From the sequence record NC_054903.1: a DNA stretch of 64,000 bases; one strand, 5' to 3'. This DNA is from Enterobacteria phage GiZh. The notes under the pieces were generated by a model. The model saw only the letters and a program-made list of their open reading frames with translations. It searched no databases and had not been told where the DNA came from. Position 1 is the stretch's first letter; the number at the start of each line of letters is the position of its first letter. A program made the position numbers and the translations under genes. This document shows, in pieces, positions 12,126 through 43,386 of the stretch.

Positions 12126-12275
12126 TTACTGCATGACAGTTATCACAGTCATGATAACACGTTGAATTCCGAACGCAAGAAGACCTCCTGCTATGGCTGG
12201 AACAACGCCTAAACCCGCCAGTAAAATGCTACCAGATACTAATGCAGCGCTTGTAATACCAATGAATGGACTCAT
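12126..12275 (-). CDS. small hydrophobic membrane peptide (49 aa)
   Basis: ATG overlaps gene 52 stop (ATGA); below ORF-track cut-off. Confidence 0.4.
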   Translation of the reverse strand: MSPFIGITSAALVSGSILLAGLGVVPAIAGGLLAFGIQRVIMTVITVMQ

Positions 12276-13600
12276 TTGATTTCCTCTAAATCTTTGGTGT
12301 ATTCGGTAACTACATCAGTAGTTTTCCAATATTCGTTTTCTTCTTTTTTAGCTTTAGCTTCTTCAGCAAGTTTCTTTGCTTCATCGGAAGTCATATGAAA
12401 AATATTCATTCCAACTAGTTTATCAACATAAGAAGAATACATATCGATTTTCGAAAGTTCTTCGGTCAGTTCTTTACGAGTTTTACCCTGTACAACAATT
12501 TCACCTGAAATTACTTTCTTAATGAAATGTGCCTTGGCAAAGGCTAAACGAAAAGCTGACTCAGTTTCTTTGATTTTGTTATCAATTCGTTTTTGGACAT
12601 AAGTTTTACGAACTTCAACAAAGTCTTTAATTAAATCGACTACGTTATCGTAAACTTGTAGTTTTCCTTTCTCATTAATAACCGTAATATTCTGAGAACG
12701 ACGCTCAATCAACCCAAAGTCTTTCATAATTTTTGCATGGCGTTCTTCTTCATTATCGCTCAAAGAATATTCTTTACGGAATTTAACTTTAAAGCCAAAA
12801 CCATGCTCACCACAAGCATCATCCCATGTAATGAAGCCTTTATCTTCAAGTGGGTCTAAGATTTTACTCACATAAGTTTCACGATCATACTTATACGGAA
12901 TCTCAGTGATATGCATTTGAGTTCGTGAAGTAAACTTATATGTTCCACGAATTTCATATTGCCCATCAATTTCAACGACTTCACCACGAAATTCTGGGAA
13001 TTCTACCTTCGGTTTAGTTACTTTCTTTCCTTGAAGAGCTTGCAGTACAGCTTTCTTAACAGAAGAAACACTATGAGGAAGAATGTAAGTTGCATAACCA
13101 GTTGCAATACCGGAAACGCCATTAAGAAGAACAGTAGGAATAATAGGCAAATAGAAAGCAGGCGGAATGTGTTCTTTATCTTGATGTACCGGAGCATATT
13201 CAGTATCTTTATATACGTTATAGAAATTTTTACTTACACGAGCAAAAATATAACGACTTGCTGCTGCTTTTTGGACGGTACGAGAACCAAAGTTTCCTTG
13301 ACCATCTAACAGAGGAAAATTATTATTCCAAGTGTTAGCCATCAAAGCACCTGCGTCTTGCGCAGAGTTTTCACCATGATGATATCCAAGGTCCGCTACA
13401 CCACCTGCAATAGAAGCGAGTTTGTGAAATTTATCTTTATTTCCTCGTGCCAAATCAAGAGCTCGAGCAATAACAAATCGTTGAACTGGCTTAAATCCGT
13501 CAATCATGTTTGGGATAGCACGATTTTCAACCGTGTACATAGCATAAGCCAATGCTTCATTATCAATGATACTTTTTAAATCGCGATTATTCAGTTGCAT
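12272..13600 (-). CDS. 52: DNA topoisomerase II medium subunit gp52
   Basis: 442 aa, same as T4 gp52; type II topoisomerase A-subunit-like sequence. Confidence 0.9.
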   Translation of the reverse strand: MQLNNRDLKSIIDNEALAYAMYTVENRAIPNMIDGFKPVQRFVIARALDLARGNKDKFHKLASIAGGVADLGYHHGENSAQDAGALMANTWNNNFPLLDGQGNFGSRTVQKAAASRYIFARVSKNFYNVYKDTEYAPVHQDKEHIPPAFYLPIIPTVLLNGVSGIATGYATYILPHSVSSVKKAVLQALQGKKVTKPKVEFPEFRGEVVEIDGQYEIRGTYKFTSRTQMHITEIPYKYDRETYVSKILDPLEDKGFITWDDACGEHGFGFKVKFRKEYSLSDNEEERHAKIMKDFGLIERRSQNITVINEKGKLQVYDNVVDLIKDFVEVRKTYVQKRIDNKIKETESAFRLAFAKAHFIKKVISGEIVVQGKTRKELTEELSKIDMYSSYVDKLVGMNIFHMTSDEAKKLAEEAKAKKEENEYWKTTDVVTEYTKDLEEIK

Positions 13601-13604
13601 AAAT

Positions 13605-13745
13605 TTACCATACTAGTGAATGTAGTGCCATAATAACATCAGAAATGAAAAGCACGACTTGAATTAATCCGAACATTACTCCATAATATAGTGCTACTAA
13701 TAAAGTAGCAAGGGCTAATGAATAGCCCAAGATTTTCTTAATCAT
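13605..13745 (-). CDS. small hydrophobic peptide (46 aa)
   Basis: ATG/stop coupling with neighbours; resembles T4 small membrane ORFs (ac/52.1 region). Confidence 0.3.
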   Translation of the reverse strand: MIKKILGYSLALATLLVALYYGVMFGLIQVVLFISDVIMALHSLVW

Positions 13746-13896
13746 TAGTAGATAACAACACAAATGTTAAATATGCACACATACCCTGGGCTAAAGCTTG
13801 TGAAAACACACTGCTAGCATCGATACAGATAGTTAAAACACATGCTACTATCCAACAAATAAATGAAATAACTCCTAATAATTTTGCGATATTCAT
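13738..13896 (-). CDS. small hydrophobic Cys-containing peptide (52 aa)
   Basis: RBS GAGGA upstream; membrane-like. Confidence 0.35.
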   Translation of the reverse strand: MNIAKLLGVISFICWIVACVLTICIDASSVFSQALAQGMCAYLTFVLLSTND

Positions 13897-13983
13897 ATTT
13901 TCCTCACTGGCGTCCGAAGACGCCTTTAGTTTTAAGATTGTTACGATAAAACTGCATCACATGTTCGTTGTGGAAATTACTCA

Positions 13984-14427
13984 TTAATATGCCTGCAAAA
14001 CGAATTTAAAGTTATCAGCCAACATACGGTTCATTTCTTCAAGTGTTTGATACTCAGAATGATGATTACGAGTAAACGCCAAAGCTAACTGACCTTTACC
14101 AAATCCTGTCGTCAGAGGTTTCATCTTAGAAGCAGGCAGATAAAATACTGTGTATGGAACATTGTTATTTGCAATAGTACGCGCAAGTTGAGACCGGCGT
14201 TGACGAATATGACTTAGAACTGCGCTGAATCCTTGCTTAGAACGCTGATTACCCACATAAAATCGTGCGGATACGCATGAACCATCGAATTCATTTACTA
14301 AAAAGTAAAATCCAGGTTTAGATAAAATATCTTTATGCGGAGTTCCCAAAAACCACTCACCGCCCTTGATTGTACCAATAACAGTAGCGCCTGCGTTGTT
14401 CAGATCAGTAACAGCCATATATTTCAT
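13984..14427 (-). CDS. ndd: nucleoid disruption protein Ndd
   Basis: sequence recognised from [19 protein letters not shown]..; RBS GAGGAAA; ORF-track start 14475 probably too long. Confidence 0.8.
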
Positions 14428-14487
14428 TTTAATTTCCTCTAAATTATTTTCTACTCCAAGGCCGCATGAATACATACGGCCGATAAA

Positions 14488-14703
14488 TTAATCGTCGCAG
14501 TCGACGCTCAATTCCCAAAACTCTTCTACAGTATAAGTTTCAGTATCATTTTCAATACAGAAACGTTCATTACTATTATTTGCTAAAGTAGCATTAACTG
14601 TCGGTTTCTCGCTAGTGCTCTTAAGAGGTGAAATACGAATTAACTGATCACCATTATCTAAACAGAAAATTTCACCAACTTTTACATCTTTAAAACTTTT
14701 CAT
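14488..14703 (-). CDS. hypothetical protein (71 aa)
   Basis: ORF. Confidence 0.5.
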   Translation of the reverse strand: MKSFKDVKVGEIFCLDNGDQLIRISPLKSTSEKPTVNATLANNSNERFCIENDTETYTVEEFWELSVDCDD

Positions 14704-14818
14704 AATTCACCTCAAGGAGTATAAAATCCAAATGCAGTTGTTGACCATCCCATCCAATATGGGAAATTTGCACCAATGTAAAACATGAGAATATAAAACC
14801 AACCACTCAGCAAATTCA

Positions 14819-15037
14819 TCATTTTACACCATTCCAAATTGTTTCAACCACAGATTTTAAACCATTTTGATGAATATCCATTCCGACTACCGCCATCAAA
14901 TAGATTCCAACTACAACTGAACCTAAGGCAAAAATCAGCATGAAAATGAATAAAGCCGGAAAAATATTATCGAAAAACCATTCAATAAATGTAAAAGCAC
15001 TACGTTTACGCTTCATATTTTCCTCACATAAATCCAA
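14819..15037 (-). CDS. hypothetical membrane protein (72 aa)
   Basis: hydrophobic segment. Confidence 0.45.
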   Translation of the reverse strand: MDLCEENMKRKRSAFTFIEWFFDNIFPALFIFMLIFALGSVVVGIYLMAVVGMDIHQNGLKSVVETIWNGVK

Positions 15038-36706: not shown

Positions 36707-37000
36707 TTATTCGCCTGTGATTTCGGTTACGATATTTTTGTTATTAAAGTTTTTATCGCAATACAGAACATAATTATACTGCATTACACCACCAGACTTA
36801 AGCTGTTTTTGTACTTCAGCTTTCATTTCAGGACGATCGCGCTCAACGATATTCATAATATCCGCTTCAATTTGAGTTTCAACTTCAGTCTGATCTGCAG
36901 TCATAGACCATTCACACAAATCTTTATCATAGCCTGCCATAGCAGGCTGAGCAGCACAAGAAGCCAAAGTAAAAATTGTAGCAAAAATAAATTTTTTCAT
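36707..37000 (-). CDS. sp: Spackle (Sp), periplasmic superinfection-exclusion / lysozyme-inhibitor protein
   Basis: 97 aa with signal peptide; same length and position as T4 sp. Confidence 0.8.
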   Translation of the reverse strand: MKKFIFATIFTLASCAAQPAMAGYDKDLCEWSMTADQTEVETQIEADIMNIVERDRPEMKAEVQKQLKSGGVMQYNYVLYCDKNFNNKNIVTEITGE

Positions 37001-40593: not shown

Positions 40594-41442
40594 TTAATCA
40601 ACTGCTATTGGATGAATAGCATTAAACTTATGAAATGCTTCTGATTTTTCTTTACGCGAAACACACATGCGAAGAACCTTTAGTGGTTCATCTTCTTCAC
40701 CCAACGATTTTCGTTTTTCAATATTAGAAGTTTTCCAACGAGCTTGCTCTGGAAACTCTCTATTGATTTGCTCAAGCGCTCTATTATGTTTAGAATTACT
40801 GCGAATTGAACTGCACCCGCCAGGAGCTTGTGCTTTTCCAGATACAACCAGATATTTGAACAAGGCCAAATGCGGATAACCTTGATTAATTAAATTGAGA
40901 AATGCATACATATCTTCGCACAAATCAATTTTTCCATACCCAATTTGTTCTGTCGTAAGTTTTCCAAGGTCATACCATGTATTCGTGAATCCATATGAAT
41001 TTTCACGATAATTACCCCAAGATGAAGTAATTTTAAAAATAGGTAGACGAGCATGGCCATGATAATACCCACAATCCATGGCATCCTCAACATATTGAAT
41101 CAATTCATAGAACTGTTCACGAGTCAATTGATTGACTTTATCCACACAACGACGATCATCTCTTTTTCGCATTGAACTCATACGAATAGTAGTATCATCG
41201 TCAATCATCCAGATTCGTTGACCTGCATACATATCAGTAATTGCTTTACGAGTGCCGGCAATTCCGTTTACATCATCAGGAATAGTTACAATTTTAGCTC
41301 TAGACCCGTAAGCGTCATAATAAGCTTTTTCTTCGTGTTCACGCACTACAATATGGGGTTCATAATCAGTCGGAAACATATCAAGGGCAGAAACTGCCCC
41401 TACACGTTGATAGCTCGGAATTACGAATTGAATCATTTCCAC
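40594..41442 (-). CDS. putative DNA-hydroxymethylcytosine glycosyltransferase, GT-A type (not T4 beta-gt)
   Basis: 282 aa at the locus where T4 has beta-gt (351 aa); DDD (DxD-like) motif in IWMIDDDTTI; no resemblance to T4 beta-gt as I recall it. Confidence 0.4.
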   Translation of the reverse strand: MEMIQFVIPSYQRVGAVSALDMFPTDYEPHIVVREHEEKAYYDAYGSRAKIVTIPDDVNGIAGTRKAITDMYAGQRIWMIDDDTTIRMSSMRKRDDRRCVDKVNQLTREQFYELIQYVEDAMDCGYYHGHARLPIFKITSSWGNYRENSYGFTNTWYDLGKLTTEQIGYGKIDLCEDMYAFLNLINQGYPHLALFKYLVVSGKAQAPGGCSSIRSNSKHNRALEQINREFPEQARWKTSNIEKRKSLGEEDEPLKVLRMCVSRKEKSEAFHKFNAIHPIAVD

Positions 41443-42173
41443 TCACCGTTATAATCTTTTTTCACAATATGAGTTTCGCCAGTATTCCACCAATGATCAA
41501 CCAAGTAAAAATGACGAGAATATACATGAAGACTTCCAACATTCCATATAATAGAACCTGCTTTATACTGACGAGTTGAATCGCCTGCATTCAAATCAGA
41601 TACTAATTTATCTAATACGTATTTTTGCCATGCATAATCATTACGGAATCCGAAGACCACGTCATTTGAGCGCATGCTTACTACTGCATTGACTTTCTTA
41701 TCACGAATCAGGTACTGTACTGTATTAGTACACATGAAATCTGACATACCATCTTTATTGTAGTCAAATTGCATGGATGGACGAGTATAAATCATGATAC
41801 CACGTCGAGAATCAGGATTTTGACCAAGTTCAGCTAAACACATATCATACTGGGCATAGTTATCTTCTGACCAAATAGCCCAACCATAATTCGAGTTAAT
41901 TTCGCCTTTAGAAGATGCTACCTGCTGCCAAATCTTTGGTGTTTCACCTGGAATATCTTTAACAAACAAGCTCTTAGATTTATACCATTCAAGTTCACGC
42001 TGAATGTATTCATCATTAAGAGCGCCAAAAATAAACGGTTCATCTGCTACAAATGATGCGCCAATAATTTCAATAGTTTTAACACCAGTTTTATCAACTA
42101 CGAAATCTTTTTCCTTTAATGCAAGCCCCAAATGAAGACGGATTTCTTCAACTGTCATAGAGTCACTAATCAT
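41433..42173 (-). CDS. 42: dCMP hydroxymethylase gp42
   Basis: 246 aa, same as T4 gp42; thymidylate-synthase-like fold motifs. Confidence 0.85.
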   Translation of the reverse strand: MISDSMTVEEIRLHLGLALKEKDFVVDKTGVKTIEIIGASFVADEPFIFGALNDEYIQRELEWYKSKSLFVKDIPGETPKIWQQVASSKGEINSNYGWAIWSEDNYAQYDMCLAELGQNPDSRRGIMIYTRPSMQFDYNKDGMSDFMCTNTVQYLIRDKKVNAVVSMRSNDVVFGFRNDYAWQKYVLDKLVSDLNAGDSTRQYKAGSIIWNVGSLHVYSRHFYLVDHWWNTGETHIVKKDYNGEWK

Positions 42174-42180
42174 TTAAACC

Positions 42181-42330
42181 TCAATTGATGCATTCATATT
42201 TAAATTGTAACAGTAATAAACCCCACCCTATGATAAGAGTTGGAATCATAGCAGGAACTGTTACGCTATAGTATATACTTATTATAACCATCAAGATTAA
42301 AAGCAACACTGTTATAATTTTGCTTTTCAT
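42181..42330 (-). CDS. small membrane peptide (49 aa)
   Basis: hydrophobic; ATG overlaps imm stop; below cut-off. Confidence 0.3.
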   Translation of the reverse strand: MKSKIITVLLLILMVIISIYYSVTVPAMIPTLIIGWGLLLLQFKYECIN

Positions 42331-42578
42331 TCTTTCTCTCTGATGATAATTACCTGATTTGGCTGTGCAGACTTTTTAGTTTCACTAGCAATTGACCAAA
42401 TAAATGTAATAAACCAACCAATAATTGACCAGTTAAACAGTAAAGACGTGAAAAAGATTCCTACTGTCGATTTTGACCCACGCATCAAGGCGATAAACCA
42501 TGGAAGCATGTATATAATAATAGCCAACACACCTGAAACTAAAACCATAAAAATTGAACCTGCTACTAAAGTTTCCAT
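42327..42578 (-). CDS. imm: immunity (superinfection exclusion) protein Imm
   Basis: 83 aa; sequence recognised; two TM helices. Confidence 0.85.
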   Translation of the reverse strand: METLVAGSIFMVLVSGVLAIIIYMLPWFIALMRGSKSTVGIFFTSLLFNWSIIGWFITFIWSIASETKKSAQPNQVIIIREKE

Positions 42579-42593
42579 GTTTTCCTCACTTAG

Positions 42594-42968
42594 TCAATTT
42601 TTTTTTACACATGAATTATAAGAATTCACTACATACTCCATCGGAGCATTTTTACCAGTACGCCATTGGTAATTATTAGCCCAATTAGCCCAAATTTCGG
42701 CGCAGTAGTTTTCAATTTTTTCTTCGCGTGTAATTACATCAGAATTACGATATGCTTGAGCAGATTCATCTGGACGAATAGCTTCGTCAAAATTCGCCTG
42801 CATTTGTTCTACTGTTTGCTTTGGAGCTTCTTTATAACACTTGACATTAGGATTATAAAATTTGCTTGAACAGTTTACAATTTTTCCTACACCAGACTGA
42901 TTTACTACCGGTCCTTGAGCTACACAACCAGTAAGACCTAATGCAATAACCAAAATAGCGATTTTCAT
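42594..42968 (-). CDS. lipoprotein (124 aa)
   Basis: signal peptide with lipobox LTGC. Confidence 0.55.
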   Translation of the reverse strand: MKIAILVIALGLTGCVAQGPVVNQSGVGKIVNCSSKFYNPNVKCYKEAPKQTVEQMQANFDEAIRPDESAQAYRNSDVITREEKIENYCAEIWANWANNYQWRTGKNAPMEYVVNSYNSCVKKN

Positions 42969-42978
42969 AATAATTTCC

Positions 42979-43215
42979 TCAAATGCAAGTAGTAATTACT
43001 CCAGTAGTGCTTATGCAGGTATTACCCATTTGCACACCTAAAGATCCATTTGTATTCACATGAAGATTATCATCAATTTTAACTGATATTTTACCATTAG
43101 TGTGAATAACGGTGCTAGATTCAATCACAGGTTGAGTATCATTTTCAACACTAACAAATGGAACTGCTGCTAATGCAACTAAACAAACTGCTAAGCATCC
43201 CATAACAATTTTCAT
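42979..43215 (-). CDS. secreted/envelope protein (78 aa)
   Basis: signal peptide; start at ATG with GGAGAA RBS. Confidence 0.5.
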   Translation of the reverse strand: MKIVMGCLAVCLVALAAVPFVSVENDTQPVIESSTVIHTNGKISVKIDDNLHVNTNGSLGVQMGNTCISTTGVITTCI

Positions 43216-43244
43216 TTTATTCTCCAAATCTGTATCAGTAGTTG

Positions 43245-43360: not shown

Positions 43361-43386
43361 TATGAAAAAGGGACCCGGAGGTCCCT
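43361..43386 (-). terminator. hairpin (GGGACC-UCCG-GGUCCC) + U-run after gene 43
   Basis: stem-loop followed by tttttcata on - strand. Confidence 0.55.

What the first reader, a model, noticed from the sequence alone, without database searches (positions are those of the whole stretch)
42181..43215. Cluster of envelope-targeted small proteins around imm
Four adjacent genes encode membrane or exported proteins: a 49-aa hydrophobic peptide, Imm (two TM helices), a 124-aa lipoprotein (lipobox LTGC) and a 78-aa signal-peptide protein. Imm is a known superinfection-exclusion factor, and the neighbours are candidates for further exclusion, receptor-masking or periplasmic functions.
Basis: partly seen in the sequence, partly recalled or inferred. 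Interest (0 to 1): 0.45.

Follow-up and report, generated by a model that had tools for sequence, protein, structure and literature searches.

The report
T-even imm envelope gene cluster
This is the known imm region of a T4-like phage: four real, early-transcribed genes for small membrane or periplasmic proteins. Only Imm has a known job, blocking a second infection, but the lipoprotein gene imm.1 lies next to imm in every T4-like lineage examined, so it is a testable candidate partner.

Summary
On the minus strand, 42181-43215 holds four back-to-back genes: ORF78, imm.1, imm and a 49-aa gene that RB32 annotates as 42.1. The window is a Tequatrovirus, 99.7% identical to Shigella phage SHBML-50-1.

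All four are real genes. Their reading frames are intact in 9-15 related phages, and dN/dS is 0.04-0.35. All four carry a hydrophobic N-terminus, a lipobox or transmembrane segments. A run of four such genes is unlikely by chance (shuffling P about 0.007, on crude gene calls).

They follow the gene 43 terminator and a T4-early-type promoter.

- **Imm** is the known superinfection-immunity protein.
- **Imm.1** (DUF5481) is a predicted outer-membrane lipoprotein. It, or a similar lipoprotein, lies next to imm in every T4-like lineage sampled. That includes RB69, where the pair sits beside spackle.
- **42.1** is a conserved two-helix micro-protein whose start overlaps the imm stop in five lineages.
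- **ORF78** is a strain-variable accessory gene. T4 lacks it through a 248-bp indel between two similar start regions.

No function has been shown for any of the three neighbours. The genes are already annotated. The conserved Imm-lipoprotein pairing is the useful lead.

The parts
43369..43386 (-). Intrinsic-terminator-like hairpin (AGGGACC-TCCG-GGTCCCT followed by TTTTTC) just after the gene 43 stop. It separates gene 43 from the cluster.
   Evidence: Conserved in T4. Annotated as a terminator in phage G8.
43253..43281 (-). Promoter-like site TTTACA-17 nt-TACTAT with TG before the -10 hexamer. From my own knowledge it resembles the T4 early-promoter form (GTTTACA ... TGGTACTAT). It is the putative start of the ORF78-imm.1-imm-42.1-42 transcript.
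   Evidence: Identical in T4. Consensus match only; transcription was not shown.
42979..43215 (-). ORF78 (phrog_4189). The N-terminal hydrophobic segment (residues 3-23) is a signal peptide or signal anchor. The C-terminal ~55 residues are beta-rich, with Cys67 and Cys77. It is a strain-variable accessory gene.
   Evidence: AF2 pLDDT 55.7, six short strands. Present in 324 phage records, all Tequatrovirus-like. Absent in T4. dN/dS 0.33.
43202..43225 (.). Translation-initiation region of ORF78. It is one copy of a 24-nt direct repeat, 75% identical, including ATGAAAAT.
   Evidence: family D2, spacing 247. The T4 junction falls in this repeat.
42955..42978 (.). Translation-initiation region of imm.1, the second copy of the same repeat. 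Recombination between the two copies would give the T4 arrangement, which lacks ORF78.
42594..42968 (-). imm.1 (DUF5481). A predicted lipoprotein with lipobox LTGC (Cys15) and Val at +2, so outer-membrane sorting by the E. coli +2 rule. The mature part has four Cys. The C-terminal helical hairpin (81-123) holds the family-invariant Cys89 and Cys120.
   Evidence: dN/dS 0.043. Found in 655 phage records.
42327..42578 (-). imm, the superinfection-immunity inner-membrane protein (83 aa, two hydrophobic segments).
   Evidence: PF14373, E 7.7e-16. 97-99% identical to T4 Imm. dN/dS 0.057.
42181..42330 (-). Gene 42.1 in RB32 naming (phrog_3610; PF26865 in precomputed tables). A 49-aa two-helix hairpin micro-protein with invariant P-x-MIPT...W...LQ...C-x-N. 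Its ATG overlaps the imm stop (ATGA), and its stop sits in the Shine-Dalgarno sequence of gene 42.
   Evidence: Unannotated in T4 NC_000866, although the ORF is intact there.
41433..42173 (-). Gene 42 (dCMP hydroxymethylase), the next cistron downstream. Context only.
36707..37000 (-). sp (Spackle), the other T4 superinfection-exclusion gene, 5.3 kb away in this phage. In RB69 it lies directly after imm.1-imm.
   Evidence: PF25676, E 5.8e-45. RB69 gene order.

Best explanation
This is the early 'imm operon' of a T-even phage. After the gene 43 terminator, one early-type promoter reads ORF78, imm.1, imm, 42.1 and then gene 42.

The four small products go to the cell envelope soon after infection.

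- **Imm** inserts in the inner membrane. By established knowledge it stops DNA of a superinfecting T-even phage from crossing that membrane.
- **Imm.1** is exported and lipidated at Cys15. Having no Asp at +2, it would be carried to the inner face of the outer membrane, with a disulfide-braced helical domain hanging into the periplasm. I infer that it works in the same process as Imm, either superinfection exclusion or protection of the infected envelope from secondary adsorption. The likely site is the periplasmic stage, where an incoming tail tip passes.
- **42.1** is a two-helix inner-membrane micro-protein made by translational coupling to imm. It is probably a membrane partner or modulator of Imm.
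- **ORF78** is a dispensable accessory periplasmic or membrane-anchored protein. It occupies a variable slot and has no assignable role.

Shown here: the genes are real, the targeting signals are present at sequence level, the operon layout fits, and the gene linkage is conserved. Inferred: lipidation, outer-membrane location, and any role of Imm.1, 42.1 or ORF78 in exclusion.
For: **Gene reality and selection.**

**Targeting features.**. None of nine lipoprotein lineages has Asp at +2.

**Operon signals.** Terminator and promoter. The ATGA overlap of imm and 42.1 and the Shine-Dalgarno sites can be read directly.

**Linkage of imm.1 with imm.**
- Tequatrovirus: 43-(ORF78)-imm.1-imm.
- RB69: the pair has moved to 61.4-imm.1-imm-sp.
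- Three metagenomic homologues at 33-44% identity each sit directly upstream of a PF14373 gene.
- Phage-database counts match by genus: Imm 497 + 155 records, Imm.1 about 500 + 155.
- Gelderlandvirus, Jiaodavirus and Muldoonvirus have a 147-148-aa lipobox protein directly upstream of imm. Dhakavirus and Gaprivervirus have a 166-176-aa one after imm-42.1.
- These proteins share the first ~30 mature residues with DUF5481. hhalign gives 97% with the signal peptide and 84% (E 7e-6) without it.
- In an IMG/VR sample, 20 of 20 T4-like Imm loci have a lipobox ORF within 152 nt of imm, and only one other lipobox ORF lies in their ±3 kb flanks. Among 60 non-T4-like Imm loci, 3 have a lipobox ORF within 400 nt.

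**Linkage of 42.1 with imm.** Its start overlaps the imm stop in Tequatrovirus, Gaprivervirus, Dhakavirus and the metagenomic loci L021 and L023.
Against: - No experiment on Imm.1, 42.1 or ORF78 was found. The one paper that mentions Imm.1 says its role in exclusion 'remains to be proven'.
- The linkage data are phylogenetically non-independent. Only about three distinct arrangements exist.
- Homology between DUF5481 and the other Imm-adjacent lipoproteins is supported only for a short N-terminal module.
- One family member (P0004) has an ordinary signal peptide instead of a lipobox.
- Most non-T4-like Imm homologues have no such neighbour, so Imm does not generally need one.
- 42.1 is separated from imm in RB69. 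It is absent next to imm in L020, Gelderlandvirus and Jiaodavirus.
- ORF78 is missing from T4 and from roughly a third of Tequatroviruses.
- The structure models are poor (pLDDT 61.5 and 55.7) and gave no informative fold match.
- From memory, not checked here: plasmid-borne imm alone gives exclusion (Lu and Henning 1989).
Confidence: 0.5

Rival explanations
1. The neighbours are unrelated small accessory genes ('morons') that happen to sit in a plastic early region downstream of gene 43. Adjacency reflects shared ancestry and shared early expression, not a shared function with Imm.
For: - The slot between gene 43 and imm.1 is variable. It is empty in T4, L003, L020 and L021. It holds ORF78 here and a frd.3-like gene in L023.
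- CT01 carries a degraded ORF78 with duplicated flanks.
- 42.1 is split from imm in RB69 and absent in several lineages.
- ORF78 and 42.1 evolve under looser constraint, with dN/dS about 0.33-0.35.
Against: - imm.1 and imm moved together to a new site in RB69, next to the other exclusion gene sp.
- A lipoprotein gene flanks imm in 20 of 20 T4-like loci, against one other lipobox ORF in about 120 kb of flanks.
- imm.1 is as constrained as imm (dN/dS 0.043 against 0.057).
Confidence: 0.25
2. Imm.1, and perhaps ORF78, acts like T5 Llp or the Cor proteins. On this view it is an outer-membrane lipoprotein that binds and masks the phage's own receptor, which blocks adsorption of later phages and protects released progeny.
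For: Imm.1 is a predicted outer-membrane lipoprotein made early. This is the same cell location and timing as Llp (PMC9586334, listed).
Against: - Imm.1 is 96-99% identical across Tequatroviruses, including T2 and T4. By textbook knowledge these use different outer-membrane receptors.
- dN/dS of 0.043 shows none of the diversification expected of a receptor-specific binder.
- No sequence or fold match to any named family beyond DUF5481.
- From general knowledge, T-even-infected cells still adsorb secondary phage, which is the basis of lysis inhibition.
Confidence: 0.07
3. The cluster serves lysis control or envelope stability rather than DNA exclusion. Imm.1 and 42.1 would strengthen the envelope against lysis from without or tune lysis inhibition. 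ORF78 would be a releasable signal-anchor (SAR-type) periplasmic regulator like the RI antiholin.
For: [quoted passage not shown]
- The ORF78 N-terminal segment is rich in small residues (G, A, C). It tolerates 7-residue duplications, as a membrane segment would rather than a tightly specified signal peptide.
Against: There is no similarity to RI, RIII, holin or spanin families. ORF78 is absent from T4, the phage in which lysis inhibition was defined. The idea is purely inferential.
Confidence: 0.15

Closest known systems
T4 imm / imm.1 region (NC_000866: 42 - imm - imm.1 - 43)
   Same: The order, strand, promoter and terminator match. The shared sequence is about 95-97% identical. Imm and Imm.1 are orthologues.
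   Different: The window carries an extra 78-aa gene between imm.1 and gene 43, which T4 lacks through a 248-bp indel. The 49-aa gene is present in T4 but unannotated in that record. RefSeq labels T4 imm.1 'iduronate sulfatase'. No family search here returned any sulfatase match.
RB69 (Mosigvirus) imm.1-imm-sp cluster
   Same: It has the same imm.1-imm pair in the same order (Imm.1 32% identical, Imm 64%). Both products carry the same targeting features.
   Different: The pair lies between 61.4 and sp rather than between 43 and 42. The 42.1 homologue (RB69ORF054c) stayed downstream of gene 43. There is no ORF78.
T4 Spackle (gp61.3, PF25676)
   Same: It is an early, small, exported periplasmic protein that contributes to superinfection exclusion. 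It is encoded next to imm.1-imm in RB69.
   Different: There is no sequence similarity to Imm.1 or ORF78. Spackle has a cleaved type I signal peptide and a known target, the gp5 lysozyme (PMC7677548). No target is known for Imm.1.
T5 Llp and Cor-type exclusion lipoproteins
   Same: They are phage-encoded outer-membrane lipoproteins made early, and they protect the infected cell from further infection.
   Different: No sequence similarity was detected. The conservation pattern of Imm.1 argues against receptor-specific masking. Imm.1 is paired with an inner-membrane protein.
Imm-adjacent lipoproteins of Gelderland-, Jiaoda-, Muldoon-, Dhaka- and Gaprivervirus
   Same: They share a lipobox and lack Asp at +2. 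They share a post-lipobox motif (G-D/E-x-V-x-A-x-E-V/I-G-K/Q) and two C-terminal Cys 31-49 residues apart. All lie next to imm.
   Different: They are 147-176 aa long. They do not match PF17578. Homology to DUF5481 is supported only over about 30 residues. In Dhakavirus and Gaprivervirus the gene lies downstream of imm-42.1.

Membership tests
Imm_superinfect (PF14373; T4 Imm) | Profile match above the Pfam gathering score | tested here: met
   58.2 bits against 27.9, E 7.7e-16. phrog_1039 'immunity to superinfection', E 2e-32.
Imm_superinfect (PF14373; T4 Imm) | Small protein with two hydrophobic membrane segments; orthology to T4 Imm | tested here: met
   83 aa, with hydrophobic stretches at 1-34 and 39-65. 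It differs from T4 Imm at 2 of 83 residues.
Imm_superinfect (PF14373; T4 Imm) | Blocks DNA entry of superinfecting T-even phage | not testable with these tools
   Needs a phage challenge experiment.
DUF5481 / Imm.1 (PF17578) | Profile match above the gathering score | tested here: met
   230.7 bits against 27, covering profile positions 1-102 of 103. phrog_1754, E 3e-43.
DUF5481 / Imm.1 (PF17578) | Encoded directly upstream of an Imm (PF14373) gene | tested here: met
   Met in the window, T4, RB69 and the loci of P0004, P0005 and P0007.
Bacterial lipoproteins (Lgt/LspA/Lnt substrates) | Positively charged n-region, hydrophobic h-region, and lipobox [LVI][ASTVI][GAS]C with the Cys at about 15-25 | tested here: met
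   Imm.1 begins MKIAILVIALGLTGC, with lipobox LTGC and Cys15. The lipobox is conserved in 5 of 6 family representatives. P0004 has a type I signal instead.
Bacterial lipoproteins (Lgt/LspA/Lnt substrates) | Actual lipidation and outer-membrane sorting (no Asp at +2) | tested here: inconclusive
   The +2 residue is Val here, and G, A, V, S or Q in homologues and analogues. That predicts outer-membrane sorting. Lipidation and location cannot be tested in silico here.
gp42.1 micro-protein family (phrog_3610; PF26865 in precomputed tables) | Profile match and the conserved P-x-MIPT...W...LQ...C-x-N motif | tested here: met
   phrog_3610, E 2.4e-26. Close homologues carry PF26865. Invariant columns. 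The local Pfam copy gave no hit.
phrog_4189 (ORF78 family) | Profile match | tested here: met
   E 4.8e-30, covering profile positions 1-71 of 71. No Pfam, NCBIfam or PADLOC family matched.
Type I (Sec/SPase I) signal peptide, for ORF78 | An n-h-c structure with small residues at -3 and -1 | tested here: inconclusive
   K2, hydrophobic residues 3-23, and ALA|A at 14-16. The h-region is about 20 residues long and tolerates 7-residue duplications, so an uncleaved anchor is equally possible. SignalP was not available.
Receptor-masking exclusion lipoproteins (T5 Llp, Cor) | Sequence or fold relatedness | tested here: not met
   No match beyond DUF5481 in Pfam, PHROGs, NCBIfam, PADLOC, PDB sequences, or Foldseek against PDB and BFVD. 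The model used for the fold searches was low-confidence.
Receptor-masking exclusion lipoproteins (T5 Llp, Cor) | Specificity that tracks the phage's receptor | tested here: not met
   Imm.1 is 96-99% identical in T2, T4 and about 500 Tequatroviruses. dN/dS is 0.043.
Spackle (PF25676) | Profile match | tested here: not met
   Neither Imm.1 nor ORF78 hits it at E <= 1. The true sp gene at 36707-37000 does hit it.

The most novel reading that the evidence does not exclude
Imm does not act alone in T4-like phages. Imm in the inner membrane and an outer-membrane lipoprotein (Imm.1 and its analogues) would form a conserved two-part exclusion module spanning the envelope. The translationally coupled 42.1 micro-protein would often be a third part. 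The lipoprotein would meet the incoming tail tip in the periplasm, and Imm would close the inner-membrane step. This would give a handle on the Imm mechanism, which as far as I know is still unsolved.
Probability: 0.3. Interest if true: 0.6.

Novelty: already known. Interest (0 to 1): 0.3.

Why it matters
As far as I know, how Imm stops DNA entry is still unexplained decades after its discovery. The recent review read here still calls its action poorly understood (PMC6832632). Spackle, by contrast, now has a structure and a known target (PMC7677548).

The three neighbours are annotated as 'hypothetical', 'immunity' or even 'iduronate sulfatase', and none has been studied. A lipoprotein gene travels with imm across the T4-like lineages sampled, which makes it a concrete and cheap candidate partner to test by deletions and co-expression.

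If the pairing is functional, it would change how T-even superinfection exclusion is modelled. It would also bear on phage-cocktail design, where related T-even phages exclude each other. If it is not functional, the cluster is simply a well-conserved set of small envelope proteins of unknown role.

Tried and rejected
- **Structure of Imm.1.** AF2 on a 6-sequence alignment gave mean pLDDT 61.5, with only the C-terminal helical hairpin confident. Foldseek against PDB gave nothing below E 3.7. Foldseek against BFVD found only its own family. A profile search of PDB sequences found nothing.
- **Structure of ORF78.** AF2 gave pLDDT 55.7, too poor for a fold search, so none was run.
- **Wider homologues of Imm.1.** The word-indexed search found 3 clusters. 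Full HMMER over 1.84 billion representatives found only 6. The family is confined to T-even-like phages.
- **Other libraries.** NCBIfam and PADLOC gave no meaningful hits. Rfam found no RNA family anywhere in the window.
- **Literature.** Searches for imm.1 and DUF5481 gave only one passing mention. One broad search returned only irrelevant papers. The 2003 T4 genome review is not held.
- **Full-length homology to other Imm-adjacent lipoproteins.** hhalign supports only the N-terminal module, so I call them analogues or possible remote homologues.
- **Lipoprotein reading of ORF78.** Rejected for this window. VMGC at residues 4-7 is too close to the N-terminus, and LAVC has Val at -1. Some variants do gain a formal LAAC lipobox through a 7-residue duplication.
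- **TTG start at 43227 for ORF78 (82 aa).** Rejected, because it overlaps the Shine-Dalgarno sequence of the ATG at 43215.

Full report
**What the window is.** The window is part of a T4-like phage genome (Tequatrovirus). The 1.35 kb around the finding is 99.7% identical to Shigella phage SHBML-50-1. It matches 517 phage records at 80% identity or more.

On the minus strand the gene order is:
- uvsX
- a 282-aa TAGT-family glucosyltransferase
- gene 42
- a 49-aa ORF
- imm
- imm.1
- a 78-aa ORF
- gene 43

The other T4 exclusion gene, sp, lies 5.3 kb away at 36707-37000.

**Checking the observation.** All four ORFs exist at the stated coordinates.
- Imm hits PF14373 above its cut-off.
- The 124-aa protein hits DUF5481 (PF17578) at 230.7 bits. 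This is T4 gene imm.1.
- The 49-aa and 78-aa ORFs hit phrog_3610 and phrog_4189, both of unknown function.

My own hydropathy and motif rules gave the following:
- two hydrophobic segments in the 49-aa protein and in Imm;
- a canonical lipobox LTGC (Cys15, Val at +2) in Imm.1;
- a 20-residue hydrophobic N-terminus with ALA|A in ORF78.

SignalP, LipoP and TMHMM were not available, so these are rule-based calls.

With crude gene calls, 11 of 106 ORFs in the window have such a hydrophobic segment. The only run of four is this one, and shuffling gives P about 0.007.

**Are they real genes?** Yes. Across 15 Tequatrovirus loci (9 for ORF78) no reading frame is interrupted. dN/dS values are listed below:

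| Gene | dN/dS |
|---|---|
| imm | 0.057 |
| imm.1 | 0.043 |
| 49-aa gene | 0.35 |
| ORF78 | 0.33 |
| gene 42 | 0.068 |
| gene 43 (3' end) | 0.010 |

The 49-aa gene is called 42.1 in RB32. It has homologues in 760 phage records across several genera.

Seven divergent homologues share an invariant P-x-MIPT...W...LQ...C-x-N pattern. Synonymous differences exceed non-synonymous ones in all 21 pairs. It is therefore a conserved micro-protein, not just an 'intercistronic region' as the RB69 annotation note puts it. It is unannotated in the T4 reference, although the ORF is intact there.

**Layout.** A terminator-like hairpin follows gene 43 at 43386-43369. A promoter-like site (TTTACA-17-TACTAT with TG) lies at 43281-43253. 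Both are conserved in T4.
- ORF78, imm.1, imm and gene 42 each have a GGAG or GAGG Shine-Dalgarno sequence.
- The ATG of 42.1 overlaps the imm stop (ATGA).
- The stop of 42.1 lies inside the Shine-Dalgarno sequence of gene 42 (read).

This fits one early transcript with tight translational packing. Transcription itself was not shown.

**ORF78 is accessory.** T4 lacks it exactly. The alignment shows a 248-bp indel whose ends fall in two similar translation-start regions, a 24-nt direct repeat containing ATGAAAAT with spacing 247.

ORF78 is present in 324 phage records, against about 500 Tequatroviruses that carry imm.1.

Several observations mark this as a plastic slot:
- Variants carry 7-residue duplications inside the hydrophobic N-terminus.
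- Phage CT01 has a degraded copy flanked by a duplicated promoter and imm.1 5' end.
- Other lineages have nothing, or a frd.3-like gene, at this position.

AF2 gives a weak, beta-rich model.

**Imm.1 and Imm travel together.** This is the main result.

The DUF5481 family is tiny. Only six representatives at 50% identity were found among 1.84 billion proteins.

In every member whose context could be read, the gene sits directly upstream of an Imm gene:
- the window and T4;
- the metagenomic loci of P0004, P0005 and P0007;
- RB69, where the pair has left the 43-42 interval and sits as 61.4-imm.1-imm-sp, beside Spackle.

In the phage database the counts match by genus. Imm has 497 Tequatrovirus and 155 Mosigvirus records. 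Imm.1 has about 500 and 155.

Genera without a detectable DUF5481 protein still have a lipobox protein next to imm:
- 147-148 aa, upstream of imm, in Gelderlandvirus, Jiaodavirus and Muldoonvirus;
- 166-176 aa, after imm-42.1, in Dhakavirus and Gaprivervirus.

These proteins share three features with DUF5481: a post-lipobox motif, two C-terminal cysteines, and no Asp at +2. Profile comparison supports homology only over the first ~30 mature residues. hhalign gives 97% with the signal peptide and 84% (E 7e-6) without it.

In an unselected IMG/VR sample of 80 Imm loci, 20 of 20 T4-like loci have a lipobox ORF within 152 nt of imm. Only one other lipobox ORF occurs in their flanks. Among the 60 non-T4-like loci, 3 have a lipobox ORF within 400 nt. 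The pairing is therefore a trait of T4-like phages, not of all Imm homologues. The sample is phylogenetically non-independent.

**42.1 and Imm.** The 42.1 start overlaps the imm stop in Tequatrovirus, Gaprivervirus, Dhakavirus, L021 and L023. In RB69 it stayed behind near gene 43 when imm.1-imm moved. It is missing next to imm in L020, Gelderlandvirus and Jiaodavirus. The link is frequent but looser.

**Most likely mechanism.**
- Imm is the inner-membrane exclusion factor (established knowledge; review).
- Imm.1 is predicted to be lipidated and sent to the inner face of the outer membrane. Its disulfide-braced helical hairpin is the only confident part of the AF2 model (residues 81-123) and contains the invariant Cys89 and Cys120. 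Because it is inherited with imm and, in RB69, with sp, I infer that it acts in the same process at the periplasmic stage.
- 42.1 is a probable inner-membrane partner of Imm.
- ORF78 has no assignable role.

Receptor masking of the Llp type is unlikely for Imm.1. It is nearly invariant across Tequatroviruses, including T2 and T4, which by textbook knowledge use different receptors. It also shows strong purifying selection.

**Comparison with what is known, and novelty.** The genes are already annotated in hundreds of genomes. Pfam and PHROG families exist for them. One paper mentions Imm.1 as a T4-group marker whose role in exclusion 'remains to be proven'.

No experimental work on Imm.1, DUF5481, 42.1 or ORF78 was found in the library. 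The RefSeq label 'iduronate sulfatase' for T4 imm.1 found no support: none of the family searches here returned a sulfatase match.

**Verdict.** As a feature it is already known. The conserved Imm-lipoprotein pairing is a modest but testable lead. Interest 0.3.

Noticed in passing
window 42594-42606 (3' end of imm.1): A run of nine A changes the last residues of Imm.1 to ...SCVKKN (124 aa). T4 has ...SCVKNLT and most relatives have ...SCVKNLTK. The difference is a homopolymer-length polymorphism, shared only with SHBML-50-1 among the loci read.
   Followed up: partly
window 42384-42386 (Imm codon 65): Imm here has Ser65, where all 14 other Tequatrovirus loci compared have Gly (SIASETKK against SIAGETKK).
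   Followed up: no
L011 2284-2433 (phage G8 gene 42.1): The otherwise invariant Cys47 of the 42.1 micro-protein is Tyr in phage G8 (KYEYIN), so that cysteine is not strictly essential.
   Followed up: no
L017 1109-1946 (Shigella phage CT01): The promoter leader and the first 96 nt of imm.1 are duplicated on either side of an ORF78 fragment. The record annotates this as a 179-aa fusion ORF. It looks like a recombination scar at the variable slot.
   Followed up: partly
P0012, P0018, P0019 (ORF78 variants); L035, about 400 nt upstream of imm: The hydrophobic N-terminus of ORF78 carries 7-residue tandem duplications (CLVALAA). One form creates a formal lipobox (LAAC), and UniRef names it 'Lipoprotein'.
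   Followed up: partly
L023 450-662: In one metagenomic relative, a frd.3-like gene (PF05798) fills the slot between gene 43 and imm.1. In that relative the Imm.1 homologue (P0004) has an ordinary signal peptide instead of a lipobox.
   Followed up: partly
window 40594-41442: A 282-aa TAGT-family glucosyltransferase (PF20691) overlaps the end of gene 42. T4 has the 351-aa beta-glucosyltransferase plus the segA homing endonuclease at this position. Related genomes label it beta-glucosyl-HMC-alpha-glucosyltransferase.
   Followed up: partly
window 12126-15016: A second, looser group of four small ORFs (46-65 aa) with strongly hydrophobic segments lies at 12126-12275, 13605-13745, 13738-13896 and 14819-15016. 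They were not examined further.
   Followed up: no
L029 842-1362 (siphovirus Sa179lw) and L030 1186-1508 (Acinetobacter phage): Outside the T4-like phages, one Imm homologue is preceded by a 97-aa protein with a type I signal peptide and two Cys. Another is followed by an overlapping 37-aa single-helix peptide. Most other non-T4-like Imm loci show no such neighbour.
   Followed up: partly
L001 3137-3514 (T4 RefSeq NC_000866): The T4 reference record names imm.1 'iduronate sulfatase' and does not annotate the intact 49-aa ORF between imm and gene 42.
   Followed up: yes
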